DNA of 64,000 nucleotides from Strigamia acuminata. Its lineage: Eukaryota. Position 1 is the first letter of the stretch. The number at the start of each line of letters is the position of its first letter. Below, piece by piece: positions 8,174 through 61,739 of this stretch. The position numbers and the translations under genes are program-made. The notes under the pieces are model-generated. The model did not search any database and was not told the origin of the DNA. It saw only the letters and a program-made list of their open reading frames with translations. The DNA is taken from NCBI GenBank assembly GCA_949358305.1, contig OX442314.1, positions 7,750,001-7,814,000 of the forward strand, given 5' to 3'.

Positions 8174-11100
8174 ATGCAGAATACTTCATTCGAGAGAAGA
8201 AACACGCAAAGATTAAGTAAACTCCGTTTGACAATTCATCGCTTGTTGAAGGATGATGCAAACAAACTCAGATGCAATTTAATCGGATTTGATGATATTA
8301 TAAATAGCAAACACGATGCGAACAAGCGTCGCATATTTTGGCTTTTTTTATTCTTATTTTGCACATGCATGCTCACTTATCAGACTTATGACAGAATAAT
8401 GCATTACTTAAGTTATCCAACGGTTATTGACGTAACGAGCAGATCGGAAGATGTTACTTTACCAAACTTGATGATCTGCAATGCAAATACAAAAGAAATG
8501 TACAGCATTGTGAAAAAAACTTATGGAAAATGCTGGCCTGGTTTTGCACTGCACAATCTTATGCAAAAACCAACTAACGATGTAGATGAACTTTGGAAAG
8601 CGACTAATTTGACGAAAGAAGTAGTAAGCGTAAAAATAAAAGTAAAAAGATCGAAAGAAGTATTTCTTTTAATTTAAGAAATATCCTAATTTCAACTCTT
8701 AATTATTTCACTCAGGGAAATTCAAATTCAAACAAAACAGTTGTTCTGACGGAAACTGTCAATCAATGGGGAATATGCTCGACATTTACATTTCGTAACT
8801 ATAAACAAACGTTTAAAACTATCTGCTTCAATAAACTTTATCATTCATTCACACAGCAAAAGCTTCTAGCGACTCATTTGTTGGACAAGAACTGACAGTA
8901 AAAATTGAAAAAGGTTCTGACTACATGTGCCCAGCAGAACCAATTATGGTAGTTTCAATAGTTAAAATTATGATTTGTAATTTTTTTTTAAAAATCTTTT
9001 TACAATTAGCTTCTCCAATCATTCTACGATTTTGGACGTCACTTTGGACTAACAACGCTACTTCTTGGTGAAACAAAAACAATTTATTTGAGTTATAACA
9101 AAGTAATATTCTTTTCATATACCGTAAAGCGGGGTGACTTTGGCTTAAGGGGTGACTTTACCCCAAAGTGAAAAAAAAGATTTGCTGTATTGCCAAAGAC
9201 AGGCAGTAGGAAATATTAACAAATAAAAAATATGAAAATATACTATAAAGTATGCTCTTTCACACTCTTAAGCTGGATTTTATCTCAGCATGCACACAAA
9301 CCTTAAAAAAATTCACAAGTGGATGCATGTTTTTAACTTAAAAAAAAAAACACTCAAAAATTATTTTATATCTCAGAAAGGGTTAGAGTCAGGACAATGT
9401 CCTTTTAAAGTGTTAATCTGTAATTATTCACGACCTTTCAGTTAAAATTTCATGCACTTATCATGAACAGGAAAGTCAGGGGAACATGTTATCATCACTG
9501 GGGCGACTTTGGCCATTTTTTGGGGTGACTTTACACCACCCCTACAGATGGGGTGACAAGAGCTTTGTAATATTATTTTTTGATTGTTTTGTTCCTATTT
9601 GTTAATTTTTCTATCTTTAAACACTTGTGATTATTTATGACATTTTTAATGCAGTTTTTTTTGTTGTTTCAATTTTTTGTAAGAAATAAATTTCTAATGT
9701 TCTTATAATTAAGTCATGATCACATGAATTTATAGACTGAACATAAAAAATGTCAGAAAAACTTTAGAATGTGACAAAATGATTTTTAAATGTTTTCTGA
9801 TAAAATCTTATTATAATTATTATTATAATTATTATCTGATTAAACATTATCATTGGATTTCAATGGTGTTCCAATTGATGGCCAAAGTCACCCCAAGCAG
9901 GTGTGAAATTGGTCAGCTGGATTAATTTTTTTTTTTTAAAAATGTAATAACTATAATTTTTTTTAAACTTGCCATTGTTTAGCACATACAAATATATACC
10001 TTACATTAAATTTTCATAACAATATGATTATTCCTAGGATTGTTATTGAAATCTGCAACAAAAAGTGGCACAAAGTCACCCCGCTTTACGGTACTGTACT
10101 ACGTTTACATGCACCAAATATTTTGAGTGATGAATAATTCGAGTGGTGAAAAATCAAATTGTTGCGTTTTCCATGCAGAAAATGATTCGTGATCACTTTC
10201 GGTTTTCGACCGATGGTGAAGTGCCGGCAGCAATGTGCGCATGCGCAATAAAAAAAAGTTCGAGTTCACTCAAATTAAACAACCTTCTGCGAGGGCTTAT
10301 TCACTACTCGAATAATCCTTGTCATCTCTGTTTACATGACATTTGAGCACACAGAATATTTCATCTCACTCAAAATATTCCGTGCATGTAAACATAGTAA
10401 TTGAAAATAAGATTACTACTCATCACTTTATTTTATTTGTAATTCTTAGTTCATATTTCTTAATTCACCTGCAAATGGATGCTCCAGTGAAGACGAATTC
10501 ACAGAATGCTATCGGAGTTGTCTATTAAAAACATTCAAGAAGCAGCTAAAATGCAGGTAAGAATACTATCGTACAATACAAAATTATCATTAACAATCTT
10601 CTTTGAAAGATTTCCCTTTATGAAAATTGATTTACCGGTTTGCAAATATTCGAAAAATATACTCGGGCAATATACTAATACAAGTGAGCTGATTGAAGCC
10701 ACAAATCCAATTTCTATTTGTCAATGTCGACGTCAATGTCAACAAATAACTTATACCTCATACATTGACTCAGGCAAAGCAGATGATGAAAAAAGTATAT
10801 CTGTATCCTTATCAATAACTAATGAGAAAATAAGTGTGTATCAAGAACGGTACACCTACGACATTATTGCTCTGATGTCGGATTTAGGAGGAAATCTGGG
10901 CCTGTTTCTCGGTCTAGCAGTCATCTCATTACCTGAAATCACTTGGTATTTATATTACATTACAACAAAATTTCACCGAAAAACACCCATCAATAAGATT
11001 CGCTGTCTGTATGAGACATGCAAGAAGAAAGTCATTGCGACCGAAGAGGAAACCATGACAGATAGAGTGTTAGAAAAGGTTAAGTTTGCGCTGGTATTTA

Positions 11101-14100
11101 TGATTGCAGGATTCACTTTTTATTACTTGCTAATTCGTATCAACTACTACAATGATGAACCGGTATCAACAATGGTTAGAATAGTTGAACGTCAGTACAC
11201 AAAATTTCGGTCAATTACGCTATGTGGCGAACAGCAAAATGATGCCATGGACGAAGCCAGATCACACTTACTGAAACACACCAACAAAACTTGCAATGAA
11301 ATATCGCCCTGGCAATTGAAAACCAACAAGTTGTCACTGGAAGAAATTTGGAAAACAGTCAATGTCTACAAAACAATTTGGGTACTAATATACAGGGTGG
11401 TTCAAAAAGTCTGGTTCACAGTAAATAAATTCCAAACCGTTTTAGATGTTGATTCAGCAAAATGATTGTTAAGGTAGTATGTCGGGGGAAATCCAATTAT
11501 GATATCCAATTTGACCTCTGAGGTCATCTTCAAGGTCATCCATATTGTAACTCGAGAACCGTGACAGTTAGAGCAAAAAAGTGAATTAGAAAGTTGTAGA
11601 GCATCATCCAATTAGTCAAGAACTGTTCTTAAAAAAATTATTTCTTAGGGAAAGGTTTTGAGAAAAAAGGTCTGAAACATTGGCTATCCTCATTATAACT
11701 CAGCTTTGTAACCTTAAACTATTGAGGCAACCAAGCTAATCCTCAATTAGGACACTTTATTGGGTCATACTTGTAAGTGGAAGAGAGGAAATACGAAAGA
11801 AAGGAAATAATTTATTTTGGAAATACATTCCACATGATAGTTTTAGGTTACAAAGCTGAGAAGACTAACATTTCAAACCTTTTTTTCTCAAAACTTTTCC
11901 CTAAGAAATAATTTTTTTAAGAACAGTTCTAGACTAATTGAATGATGCTCTACAACTTTCTAATTCACTTTTTTGCTCTAACTGTTACGGTTCTCGAGTT
12001 ACAATATGGATGACCTTGAAGATGACCTCAGAGGTTAAATTGGATATCATAATTGGATTTCCCCCAACATACTACCTTAACAATCATTTTGCTAAATCAA
12101 CATCTAAAACGGTTTGGAAATTATTTACTGTGAACCAGACTTTTTGAACCACCCTGTATACTCTGGCTCACCATGGGAGAAAGGCCAATCTTCAGTGTTG
12201 TATCGTTGGTAAGATATAAATTACTTCGTTCTACCTACAATCCATGTGCCAATCATGGAGGCTGTGGTGGGTCACCCACCATACCGGGCGTCACAGTGGT
12301 GAACAGGGAAAGGATACACACTGCAAGTGTCGAATGGCCAGCATTAGGTGGCCAAGCAACATTAATTATTAAATTTGTATATTATTTTTTGTAGGATTTG
12401 CATAAATTTAACAAAAATCTAAACATATCAGTGGACGCTAAACCACTTCCTTTTGGTCATTGTTCACGAATAAATACAGGTAATTTACAAATTTTAATTT
12501 AATTCACACATCATGTCACATTACTATAGTTAATAGTAATGTGATCAGTTTCTGTCGCAAACAACACACACCCACACCAACCATTACATCAAGAGAAGTT
12601 GAGGGTTTTAGGCTTATGTCACATGAATGTGAATAGTCCAGAGGCAATCACGTTTTGCATGTATAAACAAATTGGATACTTATCGATTAAATTTTATTAA
12701 ATATATTAATTGTATACATCGTTTAAATGACCCACGCTTGGGATTTTATTTAACTTAATTTCTTACACATTTTACTCGGAGATGGAATTCTGCCATTTAC
12801 ACCATTTCAGGTGTATTTGAATACATACTTCCCAGTCACACCTTTTAACACTTTTTCAAGTGTATTTATACATTTTGCACATTTTAACACATCTTATTTC
12901 TACCAGTGTATGGTAACCTCAACTGATCAATACAATACAAGCACAATACAATTCATATAAATTATGTCCTGCATTTAATACTGTGAGAGTGGACATGCGC
13001 CATCAGAGCACGGAAATTCCTGAACAGCACCAGATGAACCACACATTTGTCGTAACCTTGGTTCCGGTAAATAAACTTAACGCACAATATCTTACTAATA
13101 ACACCCTTTATTTCACACTTGTAATAATACAATAATAATACTTAACAATGTGGTCTCGGATCCTTGTTGGCGGATACGATTTGTTGCTGCACGGCAGTCT
13201 TACACGTGGCTTCTACTGTTGTCTAGGGTAATGGCGTCTGGCGAAACACGTGTTCGCAAACGCTTCGCTTCGGGAGATATTACAATCGTAGTATTGCTAC
13301 GATAATATCTGTGACTTCTGATTTATAGATGTAATTGGCAACGGGCATCGATCCTCTATCAATCCGGTAAAACGGCCTGACGGTGAGGTGGTGATGCTAA
13401 TGTTGCTCTGATATCTATAAAGTGGGGGTTTCCGGTCAGACACGGGTTTAAATACTGGCTGGACCGGAAATGACGTATTCGCATAAGTTCGGAGAATTAT
13501 GCAAATTCATGACGTTGTCCCGTCAGTCCCGCAGAAACGGTAAAACTAGTACAGCTAGTTTTCCCGTAATAATCAGACAAGTAACATTATTATAAGTATA
13601 AAAATGCTATTTATTATATGATAACTAATTAAAACACTTTTGTGACCTCATGGTCACCACACATTAAATAGAAGTGAACACAAGAGACTGTATTAATGGT
13701 TTATGGCCTTTATTCGGTGTGAAGAGGTCTGTTTCTCATGTCTCTATTATTGTTACTGCTGCATTGTTGCGCAGACCTGCGCCCACACGCTGCACATGTG
13801 GTTAGGGCTACCCGGTTGTGCAGCGTGATCAGTCAGTTGTTGATACAGAACTCAGTTCTTTCCCCCGTGGATCGCTCACGGTACTGGCATCGGCTTACCG
13901 ACACAATCCACAAATATCACTACGGTGAATAATAGTGGAGAACCGCTAGGTGTGAACCATAGCTCCAGAACTCTGGCTGCAAACAGGAAGTTGGACCTTT
14001 TATAGTCCACTCGTACGAGAGTACCTTTTCCGATTGGTTGTTGGGTAGTGACCGGATGTGATGTCATTCCCATAATATTGCTATCTCTCAACCATGAACT

Positions 14101-14325
14101 CAAAAAATTATTTAAAAAAACAATAATAATAATTAATTGAAAACATAAATAGTTAAAAACTGACCATTTCCTTCCCTAAAATAAAATATTTCGGCAGTGT
14201 TTACCATATTTTTTTCCTAAGAAAAACCGGTACCGAATACCGAACTAAAGACGGTATTTGGTATTCGGTATTTCTTTAAAAAATACCGGTTTTTGATACC
14301 GGTAAATACCGGTAGAGAAGACCTA

Positions 14326-14391
<66 letters not shown>

Positions 14392-17300
14392 ATTAATTTT
14401 TACTTTTCAAATGTTTTCAGAAAAATCATTCGACATAAATGCTGTGCTGTCAATTTTTTTTTTAAACCTCTTGGCTTCAAAAGTATGTGACCAGCATCTA
14501 AAGGTACGATCAACAAAATTTAATACTTAATAGGGCCTCCTTTAAAAAATTTCACAAACATGGAAAGAATTGAAGTCCATTTACTGTACATAACATCATC
14601 GATTTGAAATGAAGCTTCATTTGGCGCAGTTCCCCTCCCTAAAATAAGTGCACTCACTTAATCCTTTTTTACAAAGTGGGTCACTGAGTAGTGATCCTGG
14701 TGACCAAACATTGTCACCACAAAAACCCCCAATTTCAAATTCTCTTTTTTAAACGCCAGTTTTAACATAGTGAAACACCATGAAAGTTATGGTGTACTGT
14801 ATTGTGGGGTGCTGTCCGAACGGCGAATCGCCTAAGGGCGAATTTCGCCATAGTGATTAATGGCAAAAAAATAAATTTTTTCCCCAAAAATATTTCCAAT
14901 GGCGAATTTGCACACATTCGCCATTGGAAATGACCAAACAGGTTTCCAATGACGAATCGGTGTAAAATTAAACCGATTCGCCATTGGAAATGACCAAACA
15001 CGTTTCTGATTTATTTTGGGGTTTTAACTGCTGGATAATTGCGTGTTTTGACGTTTAATGCTTCGAAAAGTATTTATAAACATACACAACAAGTCTCATA
15101 AAAATTTTTTTTACCCAATTACAAACACAAAACACCAACAAAATGTATTTTTTTTAAACATTTAAAACTGCACTTTTAAAAATCAAACCAATTAAAAACA
15201 AAACGTAGTCTGTAAAAACATGAAAAATTACACTTTAATCAGGTGTAACGCAATTAAAACGTAATAAAACTCACAAAACCCAAACAACATTTTTTGAAAC
15301 AAGAAAATGACACTTTAAACCATTTAAAACGCAATTAAAACAACAAAACCGGTAAAAAGTAAAACATTACACTTTGAAGTAACAAAAACACATTTAAAAC
15401 GTATTTCAAACGTCCTAAAACAGCACAAAAACACGAAAATCACACAGAAAACCAATCAAAACGAAATTAAAACAACAAAACACAAACAAAACGTCTAAAA
15501 AATGAAACATTAGACTTTAAAATAATTAAAACACATTTAAAACGTACTGAAACAGCACAAAAACATGAAAATCACACAGGAAACCAATCAAAACGAAATT
15601 AAAACAAACAAAACGTTTAAAAAAAATGAAACATTACACTTTCCACTAACCAAAACATACCAAAACCCAAAAACAGCCTCCAAAACACACTTAAAACGCA
15701 ATCAAAACATAACCAATTGCCAAAAACCAAAGCAAACGTCAATCAAACCACTTCATTCCCATCTGCCAACATTTCCTTTTCAAAACCAAACCGGAAATAC
15801 ATAATAAACATGTGATATATAGTCGGATCTCAAAGGTTTCTGATGGCGAATTGGTCAACATTAAAACCAATTCGCCATTAGAAAGGTCCAATTACATTTC
15901 TAATGGCGAATTTTCCTAGATTCGCCATTGGAAATGTAAGAATAGGTTTCCAAGGGCGAATCTCAAAAATTCGCCCTTAGGCGATTCGCCGTTCGGACTG
16001 GTACTCTGTATTGTACCCCGGCCTGAACATTTTGTCATTTATGCTCTTACACATACAACTAATTTTAAATTATAATATTATTCAGTTTTTCCTAACTGAT
16101 CTGGAAGAAGAAGTTAATATTTTGGCACCTTTGGCTTTAAACTATGGATGGGCAGGTGTTCTGATGCTTAAAGCATTTAAGGTAATAAATTAAATGAATC
16201 AAACATACATGTTTTTATGCTAACTTACTTTGTTTGTATGTAATAGACTATACAAATAAATACGAAGCTTAATCCATGTGAGAAAAACAAAAATGCTTAT
16301 TTCAAGTGTAAAAATGCTTGCATCCAAAACAATTTATTCTTAACTGTCAACTGCAGGTAAATTTATTCACTTTTTTAACATCTCAATTCTGGTGTTGTTC
16401 AGTTTGCAATAGTCTATATAAATTTACAGAACACACAGTAAGTCCTTTTTTGTGCACCCGTGCACTATTGGCAGAATGAAGCCCATGCACATGCTATACC
16501 TTTTTAAAGACTTTTATTTAACTTGACATGAATGTTTGTGTTTCAACTTCCAGCGTTGCTAGGTAAATCCCATTAATATTTCGATCAATAAACTGATATG
16601 TCGCTAAGACGTTCCGGTCGCTATACCGGTTTGTCTCTAAAACGTACCGGTGAATTCGGTACATATGGTTTTTTAGTCGCTAACGTGTATGTGGCTAAAA
16701 TGTACCATTTTTACTAAAAATCGCTATACCGACAGTCGCTAAAGTGATCGCTGCCGACCGTTGTTTGTTGCTTTTAACATACTCAGTGAGTTTCCCTCAC
16801 CTATTTGAAGGTTAAATCTGAGTCGTTTATATTTCTTTTTAACACACATTTAACCCCACGTAATCAATGGATCTTCTAAACTGAAATAGTAGTTGTCATC
16901 CAACGAGAAGGGAATTTCTCACTACCCAATGCCCGCGTCGAAAGGTAGCTCTATTCAGGATTCTCCCATGTACATGGACCCAATTGCGACTAGTTTGCAC
17001 GCGTAAATGTTATTTAGCTCTGACTGAAAATTTGGATTTTGTGACAAAGCCTTTTTCCAAAAACTTAGTTTTTTATACATACTTGTTTAAAAAATATCGA
17101 GTCTTTTCAGCATAAAAGCTACCAGCATTCACAAAACTGTCGTTTGTTTCAGATTACCTTATGTAGAGAAACTGGATTTGCCACCTTGTAATACATCAAA
17201 AGAAATTAATACCGCACATTTAATGTATTTAAAGAATTATAACTCAAATCAAAAACAATGCAAATGTAAACGACTTTGCGAAAATAGTTTTAACAAAATT

Positions 17301-17546
17301 AATTTCTATGAAGGTAAATTAATGGTGGATTACCTCACCACAATGATGATAAAATTCCCTGACACTTTCTTCGAGAGTATAGAAGAGCAACAGGCATATC
17401 CCTTATCTCAATTGCTAAGCCATGTCGGGGGCATTGTGGGATTAGGTTTGGGAACGTCGTTTCTGTCTTTCTACATTTTCAGTTTAAACACTTACATTTG
17501 GTATAAGAATAAGAACTTTTTGATGTGGTTCCAAAAGAAGAAATAA
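8174..17546 (+). CDS. DEG/ENaC tandem-domain (two-subunit, four-TM) channel gene B, ~792 aa
   Basis: Exons 8174-8641, 8716-8794, 8857-8948, 9010-9102, 10450-10556, 10610-11381 (weak donor), 12395-12479, 14421-14503, 16086-16181, 16247-16356 and 17153-17546 join in frame. TM1 RRIFWLFLFLF...YLSYPT; TM2 SDLGGNLGLFLGLAVISLPE; second TM1 plus FRSITLC; second TM2 SHVGGIVGLGLGTS. Confidence 0.8.
9122..10091. mobile_element. Non-autonomous pogo/Tigger-like element in gene B intron 4
   Basis: TIR ccgtaaagcggggtgactttg ... caaagtcaccccgctttacgg, TA on both sides, internal ggggtgactt repeats. Confidence 0.85.
10098..10399. mobile_element. MITE (possibly PIF/Harbinger-like)
   Basis: Inverted termini tactacgtttacatgcac ... 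gtgcatgtaaacatagta plus internal inverted matches (aaatattttgagtgatga / tcatctcactcaaaatatt). Confidence 0.6.
11393..12156. mobile_element. Foldback Tc1/mariner-type MITE with long (~300 bp) TIRs
   Basis: cagggtggttcaaaaagtctggttcacag ... ctgtgaaccagactttttgaaccaccctg with TA TSD. The mirror-image ORFs 11402-11611(-) and 11938-12147(+) are near-identical. Confidence 0.9.
13641..14090 (-). mobile_element. Possible solo LTR
   Basis: Minus strand begins TG and ends ...gaggtcaca, with TATA-like ctataaaag and AATAAA in LTR order, and is GC-richer than the flanks. No TSD found. A similar block lies at ~12982-13520. Confidence 0.35.
14327..14388. repeat. (TG)n microsatellite
   Basis: About 31 TG units just upstream of gene B exon 8. 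Confidence 0.95.
14806..16005. mobile_element. Non-autonomous Mutator-like element in gene B intron 8
   Basis: TIR gtccgaacggcgaatcgcctaagggcgaattt and its inverse at ~15967-15998; 9-bp TSD ctgtattgt (14797-14805 and 16006-16014). The paralogous gene A intron (~2450) shows the empty site. Confidence 0.85.
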
Positions 17547-20500: not shown

Positions 20501-21959
20501 ATCGCCAAGCAAGAACGATGCAACAGTCTATCGAGTCATCTATTTTGAACTCCATTTTGTACCTCAAATGGAAGAAAACTAAAACTATATTAAAATTATA
20601 TTAAACTAATATTGCAGTATTTTGACATTTGCGACGGATTATTTTCTTGCTCGAAAATTTTCGATTGTTTAGAATTATTTTTATTGATTGAACAGTTTTC
20701 TAATTTCTGGACAAATCGTGTTCATTGATATAATTTCTCAACTTACTGTTAATGTTGTCCCATCGATGTACTTTTTTCGTGATTAGCGAAGATTCAGTGC
20801 TCGGACAATCGTCGCCGACCTGGTTCGATAGTGCAGAAAAAACCGGAAGCGGAAGTTTGAGACAAATATAATCTCGTACTCAAATTAATACATCTAAAAT
20901 ATTTTTACGTTTCGACATGGCGATTTCGGGTTAAAATTTAATGAAATCTAATTTCTTCAGCGATATTTATGTGTATTTATGACGAAACGACCGATGAAAT
21001 ATCAAATCGGCGACGAAATGACCCATCGGCGACGAAAAGACCGGCTACGAAATGACCGTACCAGAATTCGAAAACAAAAAGGGCCAACGCCGAAAACTGC
21101 GATCGTTTCGTCGCCACTTACGGCGACGAAACGATCGCCTACAAAACGTAGGCGACGAAATGATCCGCCTCGTGTATTTGTCGTGTCATAATTTAATTTT
21201 AAGAAAATTAGTGAATTATAAATTCGGTGGCAAATTATAGGCACCATGCAACATTTAGTTTACAACTAGAAACATGTAGTTTCTATTCCATTTGTGGTAT
21301 ATTTCAATTTCTCTATTAAACGGAGATTTGAAATAAACCTTTTCCAATTCCAATACAATATTTTATATAATTTATATAATTTATATAAATATAATTTATG
21401 GACGGCCCCTTAGCCTAATTCCATCTTTATTAATTCATTGTAATAAATTATTGTGTTCTTTTTATTTTACTTACCTTACCTGTTGTAGTTATCTAATCGT
21501 TTATCCCTAGACATTTCAGCCAGTATAGAGAGTAAGTCTAACTTAGCATCTCAACTGTGGTTATAAGTTATTTGTTAATATACCCGGATCGCAGCAGCAC
21601 ACTGCAAGGAATAAAATGCTCTTGGAAGTGGATATCGTGGATGGAGGCCAGCGTGGCCAAAGAACAGCGTTGACGGAGGCCGGAAATGGTAAAAAAAAAA
21701 CACAAAAAAAGGTACTGAATTTTAGTTGAAATAAATTGTCCCATCTTCTTCTCATCAATTGATGTGTTTCTAGCTTGTATTTGTATGGTTACAGTTGGAT
21801 GCAGTGGGATGTAAAATGTATGGAGTCAGGAAAGTGACCAGTCGCTTGTAGGAAATTTGCATGAATGCTTTATTCAAAGAAAAACATAGGTGGCGCTACG
21901 CAAGGGCAGCGTCACAAATTATCGATCAAAGAAAATGGAGTGCCAAACACTCCAACAAC

Positions 21960-22260
21960 AACAGACATAAAAAAATTAAAAAGACATAAAAAGACAAAAT
22001 TACAAAAATGACAAATATGACATAAAAGTGACATAAAGAGACATAAAAAAGACATAAAAGAGACATAAAGGAGACATAAAACACACATAAAAATGATATA
22101 AAAATGACATAAAAAGGACATAAAAAGACAAAATTACAAAAATGACAAATATGACATAAAAGTGACATAAAGAGACATAAAAAAGACATAAAAGAGACAT
22201 AAAAAAGACATAAAAGAGACATAAAAATGAGATAAAAATGAGATAAAAATGACATAAAAA
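21960..22260. repeat. Low-complexity gacataaaa minisatellite with ~115-bp higher-order duplication
   Basis: Repeated gacataaaa(a/g) units read directly. Confidence 0.85.
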
Positions 22261-22635
22261 AACAATTTATTGTACAAACGCACAACTTAAACTTATATAC
22301 GCTGTCATTAAACAGGAAAGACATCATGTTGTATATGTACCAATTTTGGTCAACAAAGTATTAAAATGAAAAATAAACATGTTCATTTTTATGATAAATG
22401 ATGATTTATGACAACTACAAATTCGATCAGGGAAATAAGAATTTATTACAGTCATCAAATAAAGAACAGTTGATTCTGAACTGAGCGTGGTCAGAACCGA
22501 CTGCTCTGCACTGGCAGACACCAAATTAACTTTCCTTCATCTTCATAATTGTTGTTTCCAATACATCAATTGCCCTTATAAAAACTTTGCTAGAACCAGT
22601 TTGAAATCCATATACAGCATATACAGTAAGATACG

Positions 22636-25600
22636 ATGCGGAATAATTATTTCATGAGAAGAAACAGGCAAAGAGTAAGAAAACAACTACGTTCTGCAAT
22701 TCACCGATTATTGAAGGATGATGCAAATAAACTGCGATGCAACATAATCGGCTTTGATGACTTCGTCAATAGCAAACATCGTAGGAATAAGCGTCATGTG
22801 TTTTGGCTTCTTTTATTTTTATTTTGCACGTGCATGCTCACTTATCAGACTTACGACAGGATAATGCATTACTTAAGTTATCCTACGGCTGTCGACGTGA
22901 CCAGCAGATCAGAAGATGTCATTCTACCTAACTTTGAGATTTGTAGTACCAATACGAAAGAAATGGCCAGACTTTGGAATAAAACTTATGCAAAAATCCA
23001 ACCGGACTGCTTTAACATGTTAAAAACTCTGATGGCGAATCCAACACACAAAATAGAAGAACTTTGGCAAGCGACTAATTTGACGAAAGAAATAATGAGC
23101 ACAAAAATAAAGGTAAAAGAAACAAATGTTTTTTAAAATTTATGACAATTAAATATTCAAAGAGGCACTGTACACTAGGAGAAATAATAGGGTTAAAAAA
23201 GTGTAAACGTATCAAATACATTGTGAGCGATTGCTCCTCCTGGCGGTCAGTGAGTTAAATAGGAAATTCGCAAGATGGATCTTGGATCTCCAGGAGTTCG
23301 ACTTTGTGATTAAACACAAGCCCGGGAAATTGAATGTCGTGGCCGATGCTTTATCGCGAGCAGGAGCCTCGGATAAGCCCGGAGTTCTGATTGCTGCGAC
23401 ACTCATTGTGGGTGGGGACAAGTTGAAGGCTCAACAAGATCGAGACTTGGGCTGTTCAAAACTTTTGGATAATTTGGGGACTAAGTTTGGAGTCAGAAGA
23501 GGTGTGCTGTGCAAGAAAAAGCTATTTAGGGGGAAAGAGATTTGGAGGATTGTAGTTCCAGAGCGGATGAGGGTTCAGGTGATGAGGGAGGCTCACGTAA
23601 AAGGGGGACATTGTGATTCTTTTAAAACTAGGAGTCGTATTCAGCGGAGAAACTGGTGGGAGGGGCTGAGTAGGGATGTTAGAGATTTTGTTAAAAACTG
23701 TCTACAGTGTCAGTTGCACAACTATCGGACCAAGAAGGCGGACGGGCTGCTAAACCCACGAGAATTGCCACCTAGACCGTTTTATTCTATTGCTGTGGAT
23801 CATGGGGGCCCATACACCAACAGTTTTGGTTTTTCGCACGTGTTTGTTGCGGTGGACTGTTATTCGAGGTTTGTGATCGCGGTGCCGGTGAAAAACGTGT
23901 CCACAAAATCGACGGTGCGTGCTCTCGAGGACGGGGTGAGTCGTCGGTTCGGGATGCCACATCGAATAGTTTCGGACGAGGGGACAACTTTCATGTCTCG
24001 CGAGTTCGGGGAGTTTGCGCGCAAGAACGGCATCGTGTTGGAGGAGTCGCCACCGTACCACCACGCTTCAAACGGCTTGGCGGAACGCGAAGTCCAGAGC
24101 ATCGTGCAGAAGCTCAGGAAGTTGGGCGAAGCGGGGAGAAAATGGACGGAGGATCTAGAGAAAGCGATTTGGGCGATCAACACTAACGTCCAGTCCTCGC
24201 TAGGATTTTCTCCATTCGAATTGGTGCACAGTTTCGTACCATCGGAAAATCAGGAATCCAGTTGGCTGGAAGGTTTCGAGGAGGGAATTGATATCGAGGA
24301 AATGTGGCTGAAGCGAGAGGAGGCTGAAAAGAGTTTGGTTACTGCTCAGAGGGACCAGAAGAGAAGATTTGATCAAGGTCGGAAGACGGCGGAGTACGCT
24401 ATTGGGGACAGAGTGCTTTTTTCAAAGGGACCGCGTACAAGAAAATTTGATACTTTATTTTCGGGACCATATGAGATTACCAAGCAGATCGGCGAGGAGA
24501 TCTTTCTAAGATGGGAAGACTTGGAAGACACACGCTTCCCAACTGAAGAGGTTTTTCGAGCAGGACGTCCAGGAGGATCCAGAAGAGAACGACACGACAT
24601 CGGTCATTGACGCTTCGGAGGCGCGATATAATTTAAGAAATCGTTATGTAACTTGAGTTTTGTTGTCGAGGACGACAACCTGTTTGTGGGGGTCGTGTGA
24701 GCGATTGCTCCTCTTGGCGGTCAGTCTTGACCACGATTGGCTCTATTTGTTATCTTTAGTCATGATTGGCTCTTTTTGTAACTTTTGGAATTAAATCAGT
24801 CTAGTTTTGACAATCACCACAACTGGTTGTCTTTAATCATTCTCACATACATACACTGTCATCTGTTGATGGGAATTGTTTCTGTTGTGGCATTGTTGTT
24901 GTTGCCATCTATTGATAGGAATGGTTTTCCATTGTGGCATATGTTGTTGTTATTGTTGTTGCTGCATGGATGGTGTCCTCCTAAACGTAGTTTTATTTCT
25001 AAGCATAATTTATGGCCTTTATTTCTTGCAGAAATTTTCAAATTCAAATTTAGGGATTGTTCAGACGGAATCCTTCCACACATATGGGATATGCTCAACA
25101 TTTCAATTTCGTAACTATAGACAAACATTCAGAAGATCAGCACTATCTCTACGTATCATTTATTGTTACAGCACAAGCTTCTAGTAAATATTTAGTTGGA
25201 GAACTACTGACATTAACCATAAAAAAAATGTCTAACATATGCCCTAAAGCTTATTATAAGGTAATATTAATAAACAACACTTTTGACTATTATTGATTCT
25301 CTTTTTTGCACTTAGATTAACCTTGTTCCCTCTAATTTTGGAAGACACTTTGGTGTAACTGCATTTTTTCCCGGTGCAACACCAAAAATTTATTTGAGTT
25401 ATATGAAAGTACAATTTTACCCAAGAACTTAAAAATTACTATGTATGCATCATTTTATTCTGTTTTGAATTTTAGTTTATATTTCTTAATTCGCCTATAA
25501 ATCAATGCTCCAGTAAAGAGGATTACAGAGAATGCTACCAAAGTTGTCTATCGAAAATATTTAAAAAGCATCTAGAATGCAGGTAACAGTATATGAGATG

Positions 25601-27827
25601 GTATCATAAAATCACAAACATAATAATTAAATATCTTCTTTAAAAGATTCCCCTTTATGGAAACAGATTTACCACTTTGCCGATGTTCAAACAGCACACA
25701 CGTGCAGTACAGTACTGCATTTAAATTGATGGAAAGCACAAATCCAATTTCCGATTGTCTATGTCAACGTTCATGTCAAAAATTAATTTATACACCATTC
25801 AGTGATGATGGCATAGCAGACGATAAAAATACCGTATCTATATCTTTAACAATACCTACCGGTAATGACAAAATCAGCGTTTATGAAGAACGGTACACCT
25901 ACGACGTTATTGCTCTACTTTCGGATTTAGGAGGCAATCTGGGTCTGTTTCTCGGTCTGTCGATAATCTCATTACCTGAAATCACTTGGTATTTACATTA
26001 TGTTGCGTCAAACACAAATCAAAAAAGGCCCGTCAATAAGATTCGCTATTTGTATGAGACATGCAAGAAGAAAGTCATGGCCCGCGAAAAGAAAATGATG
26101 ACAGATATAATCTTAGAAAAGCTTAAGTTTGTGCTGGTATTTGTGACTGCAGGATTCACTTTATATTGCTTGCAAATTCGTTTCAAATACTACATTGATG
26201 AACCGGTAACAAAAATGGTTAGAATAGATCAACGTCGCTTCGTAGAATTTCAGTCGATGACGGTGTGTGGTGAAAAACAAAATGATGACATGGACAAAGC
26301 CAGATTACACTTAATTAAACACACCAAGAAAATGTGCGATGAAATATCACCCTGGCAATTGTTCAGCAACAAATTGTCGCTGGAAGAAATCTGGAAAACA
26401 CTCAACGTCCATGACACAATTGATATTGAGAACAAGGTATACTACCGTATGTTACATTCCAAAAACTAACACAGCAAATTATTTTTCTTGTAGAAAATTT
26501 ATGGATATCAAACACCACTAAAGACATCAATGCATCCTATTCCACTTCCTTTTGGTAATTGCTCACGAATAAACACAGGTATTTTATACATTTTATTTTT
26601 TAGAGCTGACACCTGTGCAATTTATGGGAAGTTGTGCCTCATTTTCAATGAAATTGAACAAGTTATTGAAAGTTTTTTCTCCGGTGTGAAAAAGGCAGTC
26701 ATAATTTTGACCGTTTCAATGTTTTTCAGAAAAATCAATCGACGTAACTGCTTACCTCCTGATTAGATTTGAAAACTTATTGCCTCCAAAAGCATGTGAC
26801 CAGCATCTAAAGGTAATATAACAGTACTGTACTGCGTAATCTCTACATGAAGTTCTCAAAAATGTTTGTAGTAAAAATTTTCAAAACGCAAACCCATAAA
26901 AAATTGTTTGAACTCTAGATTTGTGAATTCAATCTATGGACATTTTTATTTATTGAAAAACTTAATTTTGCTCCTAAGATTTTTAAAAGAAATCCTAGAA
27001 TAAAATTGTTAAAAAATATTATATTTTCAGTTATTCCTGAATAATCTAGAAGATGATGTTAACATTTTGGCACCTTTGGCTATAAATTATGGATGGGTGA
27101 ACACTGTACTGTTTCGTGCATACAAGGTAACAAACCAAACAAATAATACACCTGCTCATGCTAAACTAAACTTCATTTGATGAAATAGACTATACAAAGA
27201 AATACAAAGCGTAATCCATGCGAACAAAACAAATCTACTTATTTTATGTGCAAAAATGCTTGCATTATGAAAAAGAATTTGTTTCAAACTGGTAACTGTA
27301 GGTATGCTAATATTACTAGTAGTAATATATTTGTTGTTTGAAAATACTTAGCCTTTTCTGTTTCCTACTGAGGTTGCTTTTGTGAATATTACCATACAAC
27401 TGTTTGTTTCAGATTGCCTTACGCAGAGATGTCTAATTTGCCTCCTTGTACCACAACAGAGGAAATTACCACCGCTCATCTAATGTATTTCAATAATTTT
27501 GAGTCAAAACGAAAACAATGCAAATGTAAACAACTTTGCGAAAATAGTTTTTACAGAACTACCATGCATGGTAGTAAATTTGCATTAAACTCTACCACAT
27601 TCCTAATGATAAGATCAGCTGATGACTTCGTACTAGTAGAGACTATGGAAGAGCAAGAGAAATATCCGCTGTCTCAATTGCTAAGCGATGTCGGTAGCAT
27701 TGTAGGATTAGGTCTGGGAATGTCATTGCTGTCATGCTACATTTGCATTTTAAACAGTTATAGTTGGTATAAGAGTCGTCAGAATTTGCGAATGGGTTGT
27801 CGATTTGACCACAAAAGCGACCATTAA
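22636..27827 (+). CDS. DEG/ENaC tandem-domain (two-subunit, four-TM) channel gene C, ~808 aa
   Basis: Exons 22636-23112, 25032-25110, 25172-25260, 25316-25408, 25476-25582, 25647-26436, 26494-26578, 26730-26812, 27031-27126, 27189-27301 and 27413-27827 are all GT-AG and in frame. Two TM1/ECD/TM2 modules (SDLGGNLGLFLGLSIISLPE; SDVGSIVGLGLGMS). Confidence 0.88.
23222..24847 (+). mobile_element. Internally deleted Ty3/Gypsy LTR retrotransposon in gene C intron 1
   Basis: TGTGAG...CTCACA termini and 5-bp TSD tacat. The 3' LTR (24696-24847) is preceded by a purine-rich tract; only ~30 bp of the 5' LTR remain. ORF 23231-24610 has the RNase H tail (ARW...HKPGKLNVVADALSR) and integrase (H..H..C..C, VDH, SDEG, NGLAER). 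Confidence 0.92.
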
Positions 27828-28807
27828 ATATGATTTACTTAAAACTATTCATGTACAAAAATATTTGCAGTCTTTATTATAGCATCGTAACCTATTTGGT
27901 TATTCGAATAAAAAACACCGTTTTAAGTTAGCTTTCATGCAAGTTGCTAGCGCCCAGAAGTAGCCAAACTTGGCACTTTGCGTCGTCTGCTGTCCATTTG
28001 TGCATTGTGGGTCCTTGTGGCAATGCAGCAATGCCACAGTTGTCAATAATCCATTTTTACTCCAATTAGCTTATGCGTGCTAGATACGGGCGGCTCAAGA
28101 TATTGAATTCATGGCAAGCTGTATACTAACTTTGATTAAATTTTCTGAGCAAAAGATTTGCTGCGAATAATTATACACAGTGCAAAAATCCAATTTCGTT
28201 TTCTTTCACTCACCAAAGACACGTTAATGGGAAAATGTATGAATTAATAATCATCATACAAAGTGTTACTATAGGAATAAGAGTTTATTGGAAACAAAAG
28301 AGAACAGTCAATTCTGAACTCAGTGCTGGTAGTCACCAAATAATTTGCAGATACCTTTTAACACAAAACAAAACAAGGTAAAAGACTTAAAATATTCCAT
28401 ATTACCCCACTTTAAGCCGCATGCCGGTATAGTGCGAGTTTTACCAGCATGCCGATAAACCCCGTTTTAACCAGCTTGCCACTGTAAGTGAGTGCAAATT
28501 TTTATCAATAAGAATTGGCTTAAACAAACATAAAAAGCATTTTTAGATGTTCAAAATGTAGGAAATTGGCTTAAATTTTTATAAATTTACCCACATTTTG
28601 GTAACAATCTTCCGAAAATTAAAAAAACTCAAATTTCAGGCCTAAATTCTCCAATTCTCTCCTTATGACACATTCCTTTAAACGACAGTTTTAATAATAA
28701 TTAATTCGCGTAAGTATGTACAAGTTGTTTACAAAATTTCAATTGGCTTTACAGTGACAACCACCAGTACCATAGTTTGAATTCTGTACATAGAAGTAAC
28801 AGATACA

Positions 28808-31800
28808 ATGCAGAACAATTGTTTGGTGAAAAAAAAGAGGCAAAGATTGGGAGAACTACGTCTGACAATTAACCAATTGTTGAAAGATGATGAAAACAAA
28901 CTTCGATGCAATATCATTGGTTTGGATGATTTCGTGAGCAGTAGAAGACATTGGACAAAGCATCACACCTTTTGGCTACTTTTATTCTCATTTTGCACGT
29001 GCTTGCTCACTTATCAGACTTGCGACAGGATAATGCTTTACTTAAGTTATCCAACGGTTGTTGATGTAACGAGTAGATCGGAAGATGTCGAACTACCAAA
29101 CTTGATGATCTGCAATAGCAATACGAAAGAAATGGCCAGTCTTTGGAATAAAACTCACGTAAACCTCAAACCTCAAATCAAAGAATGCTTAGACATGATG
29201 AAAACTTTTTTGGTAATCCCAACTTACAATGTTGACGAACTTTGGAAAGCGACTAATTTGACGACCGACATAGTGAGCGTCAAATTAAAAGTAAAAAGAT
29301 AATTTAAAAAAAAATATTTTAAAATTTAAAAAAAAATTATAATTTTTTATGACAGGGATATAGAAATTCAAATAAATCAATTGTTATCACTGAAACTGGC
29401 TATCAATTGGGAATGTGCTCAGCAATTCAATTACGTAACTATACACATAAAATTTAGCACCATCTATTTAATTGATTTTATTACTGATTTACATAGCAAA
29501 AGCTTCTAGCGACTCGTATGTTGGACAAGTACTAACAGTAAAAATGGAAAAAAATTATGATCACATTTGTCCTACAGCGCCACATTGGGTATTTCAATAA
29601 TTAAAATTGTAAATATTATTCATTTTGTTTTCTTTTCATTCTAGCTTTTCCTTACGTTCGATAATTTTGGAAAACACTATTGCGCAGGAATGCAATTTCT
29701 TGGTGCAACATCAAAAATTTATATCAGTTATGACAAAGTAAAATTTTATCCAAGATTGTAAAACTACTAGACATCATTTAATTTAATTTTTAATTTTTAG
29801 TTTATATTTCTTAATTCACCTACAAGTAAATGCTCCAGTGACGACGAATTCAGAGAATGCTATCGGAGTTGTCTATCCAAAAAATTTAAAGAGGATCTAA
29901 CATGCAGGTAAGACTATTTTAATTTGAGATGGTGTTATACAATGAACCAAATAAATCGTAAATTAATTTTTTTGTGCAAGATTTCCCCATACAAAAACGG
30001 ATTTACCACTCTGTAAATGTTCGATCAAGACACTTGTGCCATACGGTAGAGCGCGTGGAGTAATTGACACCATACACCCAATTTCTTCATGTCTATGTCG
30101 ACGTCCGTGTGAAAAAATAATGTTTACACCGTCTACTGATACAGGCATAGCTGATAAGAAAAATAGTATATCTGTGTCATTAGCAATAACTAATGAGAAA
30201 ATTAGTGTGTTTGAAGAACGGTACATCTATGACGTCATTGCTCTACTGTCGGATTTTGGAGGCAACCTGGGTCTGTTTCTCGGTCTATCATTGATTTCAT
30301 TACCTGAAATCACTTGGTATTTATATTATGTTGCAACTAACATTCACCAAAAAAAATCCGTCTGTAAGATACGCCATCTGTACGAGATATGCAAGAAGAA
30401 AGTCATTGAGAATGAAGAGCAAACCATGACATTTGGTGTCTTAAAAAAACTTAAGTTTGTGCTGGTATTTGTGATCGTAGGATTCACATTATATTGCTTG
30501 CAAATTCGTTTTAACTACTACATTGATGAACCGGTTACAAAGATGGTTAGAATAGATCAACGTCGCTACACTGAATTTCGGTCAATTACGCTATGTGGCG
30601 AACAACAAAATGATGGCATGGACGAAGCCAGATCACACTTACTTAAACACACCGAAAAAACATGTAATGAAACATCGCCGTGGCAATTGTTCAACAACAA
30701 ATTGTCACTGGAAGAAATCTGGACAACACTCAATATTCATGAGCAAATTGATATTAACACTGAGGTATACACATAAGCATGTTAAATTTTAAAAAGTATA
30801 AGAGTGAAAATTATTATATTTCTAGAAACATTATGGATATAAATTAGCATTAAACGTGTCAAAGCATCCAATTTCACTTCCTTTTGGTAACTGCACACGA
30901 ATAAATGCAGGTAATTTACAAATCTAATTTCCTAGAATTCACACGGTCATTTCAAATAATAACTTTTCAAATGTTTTTCAGAAAAATCGATCATTCGAGA
31001 TGCTCAGCTTCTACTTAAATTAACTAATATATTTCTTTCAAAAGTCTGTGACCAAAATCTAAAGGTAATTACCACTATTTAATTTAGTGAAACCTCGCTT
31101 CCTAACAATATAATCAGACACTATATACATATACACTGTATTTTGTAGCCCCAGCCTGTACATGTTATCTTTTATGCCCATGCCTCGTACGATTAACGTC
31201 AGGACTTCCCATCCGCCATTTTTTCTGAATATTAACCTGCACAAAAATGAAGGAAGAACCATCTGTGGTCGCAATGCTAAAACTTGTTTCAGACAAATGG
31301 TGGAGGTGACGATAATAACAGTCATCAAAGAATAATGCTGTCACCATTTCCCCGCTAAATGACATCATTTTGTGTCTGTTTAGCCATGGATGGCGCCACG
31401 ATCACGAGAATGAATCGCATCAGGGTCTAACAATTGAATTATGACAGTTGGGAAGTCCCGTAGTTAATCGTGCAGGTTTACAGAAAACCTAATTTTAAAT
31501 TATAATAATATTCAGCTTTTCCTAAATAACCTGGAAGAAGAAGTTAACATTGTGACACCTTCGGCTTTAGAGTATGAATGGGCAAACCTTGTTACACTTC
31601 GAGCAGTTAAGGTAATGAATTAAAGAAATTATACCGTACATACCGTTTTCCTTCATCGAGAGCCGCTCTCGAATAAGATCTGTTGGGAAATAAATCTAAC
31701 CCGTGTTGTTTGTGTGAAATAGACTATACGACGAAATACAAAGCGTAATCCATGTGAAGAGAACAAAAATACTTATTTCAAGTGCAAAAATGCCTGCATG

Positions 31801-32360
31801 AAAAAGGATTTCGTCCAAACTTTGAAGTGCAAGTATGCTGTGTTCATATATTTCACTTTTCTCAAATTTAGATTTTATCGATAGAATACATACTTATTTC
31901 TTTATTCCAAAAAATATCTAGCCTTTTCAGCAGATAACTTATTCACAAAATTGCTGTTTGTTTCAGATTACCTTTTTTTTGGAGATCGAATTTACCAGTT
32001 TGTAACACAACAAAGGAAATCACTACGGCTCATTTAATGTACTTAAAGGCTTTTGACTCAAATCAAAAACAATGCAAATGTAGACTGCCGTGCGAAAACA
32101 ATTTTTACAAAAATAGTTTGCATGGGACTAAATTACGATTTAAATCTACAACATATATAGTTGTTCAATTTCCTGATACTTTCTTAGAGATTATAGAAGA
32201 GCAACAGAAATATCCGCTATCGCAACTGCTAAGCGATGTCGGTAGCATTGTAGGATTAGGCTTAGGAATGTCTTTGCTGTCTTTCTACATTTGCATTTTA
32301 AGCACTTATACTTGGTTTAAGAATAAGAGCTTTTCGATGTGGTTCCAAAAGAAGAAATAA
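28808..32360 (+). CDS. DEG/ENaC tandem-domain (two-subunit, four-TM) channel gene D, ~801 aa
   Basis: Exons 28808-29290, 29356-29434, 29497-29588, 29645-29737, 29801-29907, 29981-30764, 30826-30910, 30982-31064, 31516-31611, 31723-31832 and 31967-32360 are all GT-AG and in frame. TM2 motifs SDFGGNLGLFLGLSLISLPE and SDVGSIVGLGLGMS. Confidence 0.88.
31188..31472. mobile_element. MITE in gene D intron 8
   Basis: Imperfect TIR tacgattaacgtcaggacttccca ... tgggaagtcccgtagttaatcgtg. Confidence 0.55.
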
Positions 32361-52073: not shown

Positions 52074-52104
<31 letters not shown>

Positions 52105-61698: not shown

Positions 61699-61739
61699 TA
61701 AAAAATTATATATAATTATATATATATATAAAAATTATA

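What the first reader, a model, noticed from the sequence alone, without database searches (positions are those of the whole stretch)
8174..32360. Family of naturally concatenated two-subunit DEG/ENaC channels (four TM segments in one polypeptide)
Seen: in genes B, C and D one uninterrupted exon (exon 6) runs from the Cys-rich thumb and TM2 (SDLGGNLGLFLGLS..SLPE) through a ~45-aa basic linker, with no stop codon, into a new hydrophobic TM1 followed by Y(I/N)DEPV..V......F.S(I/M)T(L/V)C, which matches the post-TM1 YP(T/V)...FP.(I/V)T.C signature. Five more exons complete a second ectodomain and second TM2. Products are ~790-810 aa. Established: DEG/ENaC/ASIC/pickpocket subunits normally have two TMs and assemble as trimers. 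Inference: these genes encode fixed heterodimers, which cannot tile a trimer alone. They would need a single-domain partner (2+1), leave a module outside the pore, or build non-trimeric or linked assemblies. Retention in three diverged paralogs argues against assembly error or a chance read-through. I do not know of a described family like this, but cannot search to confirm.
Basis: partly seen in the sequence, partly recalled or inferred. Interest (0 to 1): 0.93.

Follow-up and report, generated by a model that had tools for sequence, protein, structure and literature searches.

The report
Centipede ion channels with fused subunits
Three neighbouring genes, likely from a soil centipede, are each predicted to encode two different subunits of the normally three-subunit DEG/ENaC ion-channel family joined in one chain, so each chain would supply two-thirds of a channel and likely needs a separate third subunit, a design not found in the papers searched.

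Summary
Confirmed. Genes B, C and D are intact 11-exon models (792, 808, 801 aa; all introns GT-AG). Exon 6 runs gap-free and stop-free from one TM2 through a basic linker of about 40 residues into a second TM1. The two modules are 17-20% identical, have matching introns (4 of 5 at the same column, all 5 in the same phase), and are both under purifying selection. The design is a large family: 22 of 150 database hits fall in the same two-module clade (18 named, all Strigamia maritima gene predictions). An AlphaFold2 model of one homolog gives two complete DEG/ENaC folds, closest to the centipede sensors BRTNaC1 and PDPNaC1. Module 1 keeps a canonical pore helix; module 2 carries a family-wide altered one. 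Separately evolved three-module chains occur in decapods, a midge and a second Strigamia family, so concatenation arose more than once and elsewhere fills a whole trimer. Best reading (0.5): a fixed heterodimer completed by a single-module third subunit, likely a sensory receptor repertoire. No RNA run was available, so expression, splicing and stoichiometry are untested. No description was found in ten literature searches.

The parts
1417..3711 (+). Gene A, 3' part only: exons equal to 8-11 at 1417-1499, 2528-2623, 2689-2798, 3318-3711 (second ectodomain and last TM2). Its earlier exons lie before the window start.
   Evidence: no further exon found by tblastn
8174..17546 (+). Gene B, 792 aa. 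Exons 8174-8641, 8716-8794, 8857-8948, 9010-9102, 10450-10556, 10610-11381, 12395-12479, 14421-14503, 16086-16181, 16247-16356, 17153-17546.
   Evidence: GT-AG at 10 of 10 introns, no internal stop
10610..11381 (+). B exon 6: thumb, TM2 of module 1 (10866-10952), linker (10953-11078), TM1 of module 2 (11079-11150), start of ectodomain 2
22636..27827 (+). Gene C, 808 aa. Exons 22636-23112, 25032-25110, 25172-25260, 25316-25408, 25476-25582, 25647-26436, 26494-26578, 26730-26812, 27031-27126, 27189-27301, 27413-27827.
25647..26436 (+). C exon 6: TM2 of module 1 (25909-25995), linker (25996-26121), TM1 of module 2 (26122-26193)
28808..32360 (+). Gene D, 801 aa. Exons 28808-29290, 29356-29434, 29497-29588, 29645-29737, 29801-29907, 29981-30764, 30826-30910, 30982-31064, 31516-31611, 31723-31832, 31967-32360.
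29981..30764 (+). D exon 6: TM2 of module 1 (30237-30323), linker (30324-30449), TM1 of module 2 (30450-30521)
8333..8413 (+). TM1 of module 1 in B (C 22798-22878; D 28967-29047)
   Evidence: Pfam ASC positions 5-87 on exon 1; coordinates
17406..17492 (+). TM2 of module 2 in B (C 27672-27758; D 32220-32306), followed by a 20-25 residue tail and the stop

Best explanation
Each gene is predicted to make one four-helix chain that holds two different DEG/ENaC subunits (M1, M2) in fixed order; these likely sit side by side in a normal three-fold pore, with the third place likely filled by a separate single-module subunit (2+1). Shown: one reading frame across the junction, two full modules, selection on both, a conserved M1/M2 difference in the pore helix, an ancient family-wide fusion. 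Inferred: the spliced mRNA and uncut protein; trimeric assembly; the third subunit, which could come from a single-module gene (S. maritima T1IGW0 is one candidate) or from the same gene by skipping five exons; and a sensory role, with variable ectodomains tuning a repertoire of cation channels, by kinship to the antennal heat and proton sensors BRTNaC1 and PDPNaC1.
For: (1) Both TM2 helices keep pore constraints: the glycine of the G-x-S filter is present in 17 of 17 M1 and 14 of 14 M2 rows, and the gate aspartate in 17 of 17 and 12 of 14. TM2 dN/dS is 0.20-0.40 against 0.48-0.77 in the ectodomains. (2) The difference is fixed across the family: at PDPNaC1 position G375 (a pore constriction, PMC12714832) M1 has Gly in 17 of 17 rows and M2 has Ser/Asn/Ala in 12 of 14; at S376 (the proton-block site) M1 has Asn in 16 of 17 and M2 an apolar residue or Cys in 13 of 14. 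This fits two non-equivalent subunits of one heteromeric pore. (3) AlphaFold2 on homolog T1JD34 (P0011, 28-row alignment): pLDDT 76, pTM 0.70; VIA Z 20.5 to BRTNaC1 on residues 426-777 and Z 20.2 to PDPNaC1 on 51-382. A pTM of 0.70 for two equal modules suggests a preferred relative placement (inference; coordinates not seen). (4) The other well-supported multi-module lineages hold three modules: decapod chains, a Polypedilum chain, and a second S. maritima family. A single origin of all fused modules is rejected (AU p=1.8e-62). So concatenation elsewhere respects the trimer. (5) 2:1 heteromers exist in arthropods: PDB 9pzn/9pzo hold 4 Pickpocket 26 chains and 2 partner chains. (6) Engineered ASIC concatemers with short linkers form working trimers (PMC10329638). 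(7) All 15 of 15 five-exon skips stay in frame and give 409-422 aa products, the size of BRTNaC1 (431) and PDPNaC1 (421).
Against: No transcript or protein evidence for these genes, and every centipede homolog named is an automated gene prediction from one species, several plainly mis-joined (T1JEH2, T1IZ33, T1IWH1, T1IS61). No complete single-module member of the M1 or M2 clade was found among the 150 listed hits, so the partner would have to come from outside the clade. The in-frame skips follow arithmetically from duplicated intron phases and do not show that skipping occurs. Linker dN/dS is 0.34-0.75 and below 1 with p<0.05 in only 1 of 3 pairs. The ESM Atlas model of P0011 has pTM 0.53 only. 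Human UT-A1, a two-domain chain of a trimeric family, gave trimers largely of its N-terminal half (PMC10541013), so such chains need not assemble 2+1.
Confidence: 0.5

Rival explanations
1. Self-sufficient linked pores. The third place is filled by a module of another two-module chain, so three chains build two tethered pores (M1-M2-M1 and M1-M2-M2), or M1 and M2 sit in different trimers and cross-link channels into clusters that gate together.
For: Needs no partner gene, and no complete single-module member of the clade was seen. A linker of 38-66 residues (21 homologs) is long enough by rough geometry (inference). Both TM2s stay pore-like.
Against: It requires either module to fill the third place, which sits poorly with the strict M1/M2 difference. 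Other lineages fuse exactly three modules. In the model TM2 runs on as one helix to residue 414 and only a short loop remains, though pLDDT there is under 50.
Confidence: 0.22
2. Polyprotein or one-module pore. The chain is made whole, but the basic linker is cut, or only M1 forms a homotrimeric pore while M2 hangs outside as a regulatory module, as seen in part for UT-A1.
For: UT-A1 precedent (PMC10541013, passages). The linker is basic (9-11 Lys/Arg against 4-6 Asp/Glu) and poorly ordered in the model. M1 alone has the canonical pore helix and an N-terminal pre-TM1 segment.
Against: M2's TM2 keeps the filter glycine in 14 of 14 rows and dN/dS 0.23-0.40, which is more than a dangling module should need. 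No shared cleavage motif stands out in the 24 linkers printed (by eye).
Confidence: 0.13
3. Splicing makes mostly single-module subunits. The 11-exon locus is a cassette: five-exon skips or a cryptic donor just after TM2 yield two-helix chimeras or M1-only chains, and the long form is minor.
For: 15 of 15 skips are in frame. Five GT and eight AG dinucleotides in the junction are shared by B, C and D. One S. maritima model (T1IS61) joins the M1 front to the M2 back.
Against: The shared dinucleotides lie in conserved codons. T1IS61 is joined at non-homologous points (ectodomain about 100 residues too long), as a mis-prediction would be. An in-frame linker of 38-66 residues is kept in 21 homologs at about 20-25% identity, which points to use of the long form. 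No shared poly(A) hexamer lies in exon 6 (0 in B and D, 1 in C, past the second TM1), while all four genes have one after the final stop.
Confidence: 0.1
4. Artefact or dead locus: two adjacent genes misread as one, an assembly error, or unexpressed copies.
For: No RNA evidence either way. B shows odd pore residues (Ala for the filter Ser in M1, His for the gate Asp in M2) and four long introns, one holding a non-autonomous transposon-like element.
Against: The junction lies inside one exon in three paralogs, gap-free; no listed indel in exon 6 of C; dN<dS in 6 of 6 module comparisons (p 0.007 to 6e-7); the same junction in a second species at 57% identity. A Met occurs in 21 of 24 linkers but at unaligned places, and 3 have none, so a separate start for M2 is not family-wide.
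Confidence: 0.05

Closest known systems
BRTNaC1 (Scolopendra heat receptor; PDB 8ymr) and PDPNaC1 (Scolopendra proton-gated channel; PDB 9jf7)
   Same: Best PDB matches by sequence and by fold. Same compact ectodomain and module size; same myriapod branch of the tree. PDPNaC1 also lacks a canonical HG motif (PMC12714832, passage).
   Different: They are single modules of 431 and 421 aa; PDPNaC1 is a homotrimer. Only 18-20% identical to either module. PDPNaC1 has nine exons against six per module here. Orthology is not shown.
Heteromeric DEG/ENaC channels (insect Pickpocket 26 complexes, PDB 9pzn/9pzo; ASIC2a/3; vertebrate ENaC)
   Same: Non-equivalent subunits share one three-fold pore; 2:1 chain ratios (PMC10329638).
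   Different: Subunits come from separate genes; none is covalently linked in nature.
Engineered ASIC concatemers
   Same: C-terminus of one subunit joined to the N-terminus of the next gives working channels (PMC10329638, passages).
   Different: Man-made, three modules, with tails kept and a 19-residue spacer. The natural linker keeps the N-terminal amphipathic helix of the downstream module but in most members lacks its pre-TM1 loop.
Urea transporter UT-A1
   Same: A natural two-domain chain in a trimeric membrane-protein family, with the same counting problem (PMC10541013, passages).
   Different: Unrelated fold. Each UT protomer has its own pore, whereas the DEG/ENaC pore lies on the three-fold axis (established knowledge), so the mismatch here bears on conduction itself.
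K2P, TPC and Nav/Cav channels (recalled, no call)
   Same: Natural concatenation of pore subunits fixes order and allows an asymmetric pore.
   Different: Tetrameric families, where two or four repeats divide the symmetry evenly; two does not divide three.

Membership tests
DEG/ENaC (Pfam ASC, PF00858), per module | Pfam ASC above the gathering cut-off | tested here: met
   10 of 10 exon ORFs, 34-61 bits against 23.6
DEG/ENaC (Pfam ASC, PF00858), per module | Two membrane helices around a large ectodomain with a Cys-rich thumb | tested here: met
   Both modules align with BRTNaC1 and PDPNaC1 over TM1, thumb cysteines and TM2; hydropathy found 11 of 12 helices
DEG/ENaC (Pfam ASC, PF00858), per module | Post-TM1 F-P-x-x-T-x-C motif | tested here: met
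   Degenerate forms in both modules of B, C and D; the Pro is replaced in M2 and the Thr in M1 of the window genes
DEG/ENaC (Pfam ASC, PF00858), per module | TM2 pore signature with gate Asp, Gly-Gly and G-x-S filter | tested here: met
   M1 canonical; M2 keeps the filter Gly in 14 of 14 rows and the Asp in 12 of 14, but replaces the second Gly in 12 of 14
DEG/ENaC (Pfam ASC, PF00858), per module | Palm/thumb/finger fold | tested here: met
   On homolog P0011, not on the window's own spliced proteins: Foldseek E 6.5e-19; VIA Z 20.5 (rmsd 4.0, 318 aligned) for M2 and Z 20.2 (rmsd 3.7, 317 aligned) for M1
Canonical DEG/ENaC subunit (whole polypeptide) | Two membrane helices per polypeptide | tested here: not met
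   Four per predicted chain. The chain is therefore filed as a concatenated variant, not as a canonical subunit.
Canonical DEG/ENaC subunit (whole polypeptide) | N-terminal His-Gly motif | tested here: not met
   M1 has Ile-Gly at that place; the window's M2 lacks the segment. PDPNaC1 also lacks the motif, so it is not universal.
Canonical DEG/ENaC subunit (whole polypeptide) | Trimeric assembly around one pore | not testable with these tools
   A full 2+1 assembly exceeds the 1000-residue limit of the complex tool
Canonical DEG/ENaC subunit (whole polypeptide) | Cation conduction, amiloride block, gating stimulus | not testable with these tools
   Needs electrophysiology
BRTNaC1 / PDPNaC1 orthologs | Sister grouping in the tree and high identity | tested here: inconclusive
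   18-20% identity; deep branches among myriapod modules unresolved

The most novel reading that the evidence does not exclude
Arthropods have repeatedly turned the trimeric DEG/ENaC channel into a single-chain or part-single-chain machine: whole three-module channels in decapods, a midge and one centipede family, and in soil centipedes a large receptor repertoire of two-module chains that either plug into a shared third subunit, like a co-receptor system, or link pores into coupled pairs. This would be the first natural concatenation in a trimeric ligand-gated channel family and would give natural asymmetric pores with position-specific subunits.
Probability: 0.6. Interest if true: 0.9.

Novelty: new variant of a known kind. 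Interest (0 to 1): 0.83.

Why it matters
DEG/ENaC channels are taken to be trimers of two-helix subunits, and subunit order is studied with artificial concatemers. A natural, selected two-subunit chain cannot tile that symmetry, so it forces a new assembly rule: an obligate third partner, linked pores, or processing. Each can be tested directly in oocytes and by cryo-EM. The fixed M1/M2 difference at pore positions mapped in PDPNaC1 is a natural experiment on what each position of a trimeric pore contributes. The family is large in a blind soil centipede whose relatives use this channel branch for heat and acid sensing, so it is a candidate sensory repertoire. The three-module crustacean chains would be natural single-gene channels, easier to express and solve than heteromers. 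Gene surveys that filter by length or treat multi-domain models as merged genes would miss all of these.

Tried and rejected
Whole genome: none is held for this window, so paralogs and single-module partners in this genome could not be counted. Expression: no RNA holder listed; only two DNA-like contig sets, one study, possibly the source. In one search the bins over exon 6 of C have about 12-22 times the depth of the intron baseline and most laid contigs are 90-95% alike (555 of 929; 775 of 1,245); this hints at many paralogs, but the tool says it is no copy number, so I do not use it as evidence. Complex prediction of P0011 (45-782) with the ectodomain of single-module P0025 (118-378): no answer (score 0.01 twice, alignments not used, controls not folded). 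AlphaFold2 of a three-module shrimp chain (P0102, 12 rows): pLDDT 51, pTM 0.34, unusable; no fold search was run on it. Whether M1 and M2 arose by internal duplication or by fusion of two already different neighbours is unresolved: they form one side of a branch at support 53 in one tree, group at 0.84 in FastTree, and are apart at 80 in another (quick tree in place of the unfinished careful one; 53 of 170 modules used; one search used 33). P0012's second module left the M2 clade in FastTree and joined it in IQ-TREE. Word-index searches found no centipede other than S. maritima and only two more shrimp-type chains; they scored capped candidate sets, so they do not bound the range. ESM Atlas listed only single-module clusters. 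Multi-module hits I do not count as real fusions: Helobdella P0084 (183-residue gap), Callosobruchus P0067, P0032, P0136 (possible merged gene models). A third module up- or downstream was considered and rejected: in-frame stops lie 2-9 codons before the start codons, chains end shortly after the second TM2, and tblastn found no unmodelled exon (2 weak hits of 112 outside exons, E 0.11-0.19). Earlier scan findings: none by place or sequence; three by words on minimal protist ENaC-like genes, not bearing on this. Literature search was too loose to be useful.
Full report
Observation. I rebuilt the gene models from the sequence and checked them by script. B (8174-17546), C (22636-27827) and D (28808-32360) each have 11 exons, GT-AG ends at 10 of 10 introns, no internal stop, and products of 792, 808 and 801 aa. 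They are 61-62% identical to each other. The last four exons of a fourth paralog, A, lie at 1417-3711. Pfam ASC passes its cut-off on 10 of 10 exon ORFs tested. Exon 6 holds the end of one ASC domain, a basic linker of about 40 residues and a new hydrophobic helix with a post-TM1 motif. The junction is gap-free in all three genes although dS over the genes is 0.42-0.49, and only 638 of 12,525 non-coding 45-codon stretches of this window are stop-free. Contigs of two DNA-like runs laid on gene C list 8 indels, none in exon 6; they may be the source sample, so this checks the assembly only. No RNA run was offered.

Two real modules. Intron phases run 0,1,0,0,2 and then 0,1,0,0,2. In an alignment of the halves with BRTNaC1 and PDPNaC1, four of the five intron pairs fall at identical columns and the fifth within 3-7 columns in a variable region. 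So the gene is two six-exon units whose last and first exons have merged. The halves are only 17-20% identical, no closer to each other than to BRTNaC1 or PDPNaC1 (18-20%). Both are under purifying selection: dN/dS 0.46-0.67, with pN<pS in 6 of 6 comparisons (p 0.007 to 6e-7). TM2 is the most constrained part (0.20-0.40) and the ectodomains the least (0.48-0.77). The linker alone is significant in only 1 of 3 pairs.

A family, not a local accident. The exon-6 protein found only six longer relatives by word search, all Strigamia maritima UniRef entries; the best is 57% identical over 96%. I infer that the window comes from a related geophilomorph centipede. A profile of the junction run against 1.84 billion representatives gave 781 hits at E<=0.001, of which 150 were listed. 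My own TM1 and TM2 profiles found TM2 followed by TM1 in 32 of these 150 (the profiles were seeded with window and S. maritima segments). Of the 32, 22 belong with the window's family; 18 are named, all S. maritima, and 4 were not looked up. In 21 of the 22 the linker is 38-66 residues; one model has none. T1JD34 (791 aa) and T1ITL7 (805 aa) are complete two-module models. The linkers are basic and share an amphipathic helix that matches the N-terminal helix of module 1. First TM1 hits start at residues 45-55 after a Met in 10 of 10 sequences checked, and 12 of 14 end 10-25 residues after the last TM2 hit. In IQ-TREE all 12 M1 rows form one group (SH-aLRT 94) and all 11 M2 rows another (95, quick tree, 53 of 170 modules). 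One old fusion followed by expansion fits this. All these homologs are automated predictions, and several are mis-joined.

Fold. An AlphaFold2 model of T1JD34 (P0011) from a 28-row alignment has pLDDT 76 and pTM 0.70, with four long membrane helices and a low-confidence linker. Foldseek ranks BRTNaC1 and PDPNaC1 first. VIA-align gives Z 20.5 to BRTNaC1 on residues 426-777 and Z 20.2 to PDPNaC1 on 51-382, so each half is a whole DEG/ENaC fold. The window's own spliced proteins were not folded. Hits P0035 and P0054 are BRTNaC1 and PDPNaC1 themselves and sit in the same myriapod branch.

Pore asymmetry. PDPNaC1 has constrictions at Asp372 and Gly375 and a proton site at Ser376 (PMC12714832, passages). 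At these places M1 has Asp 17/17, Gly 17/17 and Asn 16/17; M2 has Asp 12/14, Ser/Asn/Ala 12/14 and an apolar residue or Cys 13/14. The aromatic at 380 is kept in 14 of 17 M1 and 3 of 14 M2 rows. The filter glycine is invariant in both. Both helices therefore look pore-lining but non-equivalent, as in a heteromer.

Concatenation elsewhere comes in threes. A second S. maritima family has canonical, mutually similar modules; T1IZL2 holds two modules and the start of a third, and T1IU28 the end of one and two more. Three TM2 helices per chain also occur in Halocaridina rubra KAK7013173.1 and KAK7028032.1, a 1,272-aa unnamed Logan protein called on a 4,664-base contig, a cluster with Penaeus vannamei XP_069977668.1 and five 1,001-aa Logan members, further unnamed chains of 970-1,036 aa with a shrunken middle ectodomain, and Polypedilum vanderplanki KAG5672929.1. 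Pfam finds three ASC stretches in P0093 and P0024. Crustacean first and third modules form their own groups. A tree holding all fused modules together is rejected (AU p=1.8e-62, 23 rows against 10). The Logan chains are long ORFs on contigs of 3.2-4.7 kb, which suggests transcripts, but the run type was not shown. The model of one such chain was unusable.

Mechanism. The most likely working is a fixed M1-M2 pair that fills two of three places around one pore, with a single-module subunit in the third (0.5). It fits the trimer rule kept by the three-module lineages, the M1/M2 asymmetry, known 2:1 pickpocket complexes (chain counts) and working ASIC concatemers. The third subunit could come from single-module genes such as T1IGW0, or from the same gene, since all 15 five-exon skips are in frame and give 409-422 aa chains; that last fact is arithmetic, not evidence of skipping. 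Rivals are linked double pores or clusters (0.22), cleavage or a one-module pore as partly seen for UT-A1 (0.13), mainly single-module splice products (0.10) and artefact (0.05). A sensory role is inferred from kinship to the antennal sensors (PMC9974506 and PMC12714832, abstracts and passages), the size of the family and the faster ectodomains.

What is in print. Ten searches of the open library listed no paper on natural two- or three-module DEG/ENaC chains; the phrase 'naturally concatenated' did not occur in any of the 25 papers listed, nor 'two ASC domains' in the 15. I read keyword passages only, not whole texts, of PMC12714832, PMC9974506, PMC5203786, PMC4244043 (no ENaC or pickpocket term in the main text), PMC7067487, PMC8438182, PMC10541013 and PMC10329638. 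No supplements were read; those of the Strigamia genome paper and of arthropod chemoreceptor surveys may list these models. Vizueta et al. 2020, cited by PMC8438182 for Strigamia PPK candidates, is not held, and the BRTNaC1 structure paper was not seen. Most subscription journals are outside the library. The S. maritima and crustacean sequences are public as uncharacterised or hypothetical proteins.

Verdict. Observation confirmed; interpretation supported; a new variant of a known kind. Each module is a DEG/ENaC subunit by sequence and fold, but the chain breaks the two-helix rule and cannot tile a trimer alone.

Noticed in passing
P0077, P0089, P0093, P0095, P0099, P0102, P0123, P0153, P0162, P0163 (database proteins): Three-module DEG/ENaC chains, named members from decapods (Halocaridina rubra, Penaeus vannamei), with position-specific modules; in the ~1,000-aa group the middle ectodomain is shrunken to about 200 residues. 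Candidate natural single-chain trimers; worth a study of their own.
   Followed up: partly
P0024 (Polypedilum vanderplanki KAG5672929.1): 1,460-aa chain with three similar ASC domains and 27- and 35-residue gaps; either a single-chain trimer or a merged model of three tandem genes.
   Followed up: partly
P0002-P0005 (S. maritima T1IU28, T1IZL2, T1ITG7, T1IL99): Second, younger concatenated family with canonical pore helices in all modules; overlapping models point to three modules. Single-module relatives carry neighbouring accession numbers.
   Followed up: partly
window 33020-39881: LTR retrotransposon with 823-nt LTRs 99.8% identical (33020-33842, 39059-39881) and a 1,745-codon ORF at 33793-39027 with an integrase zinc-binding hit; a recent insertion just behind gene D.
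   Followed up: partly
window 23207-24725: Retrotransposon integrase fragment (rve, Integrase_H2C2) in intron 1 of gene C, between two copies of a 30-nt repeat.
   Followed up: partly
window 11389-12160: Non-autonomous element with 280-nt inverted arms, 97% complementary, inserted 8 bases behind the modelled exon-6 donor of gene B; B's exon 6 is 4-6 codons shorter than in D and C.
   Followed up: partly
window 17406-17492 and 10866-10952: Gene B has His at the gate Asp of module 2 and Ala at the filter Ser of module 1; it may differ in selectivity or be decaying.
   Followed up: partly
window 43696-45459: Enoyl-CoA hydratase/isomerase gene (ECH_1), + strand.
   Followed up: no
window 48988-58012: Multi-exon gene with SPRY and AAA_33 hits below cut-off and a Gly/Tyr/Gln-rich tail; looks like hnRNP U (name recalled).
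   Followed up: no
window 59087-62451, - strand: P-element-type transposase (TNP-like RNase H and GTP-binding domains), in several ORF pieces.
   Followed up: no
window 6834-7181, - strand: MULE transposase fragment (E 6e-5, below cut-off) between genes A and B.
   Followed up: no
window 3715-4159 and 17547-18000: The DNA behind the stop codons of A and B is 90% identical over 450 nt: A and B are a recent pair or have undergone conversion; a piece recurs at 40008-40230.
   Followed up: no
window 28304-28795: Very high-depth repeat just upstream of gene D (up to about 240 times the intron baseline).
   Followed up: no
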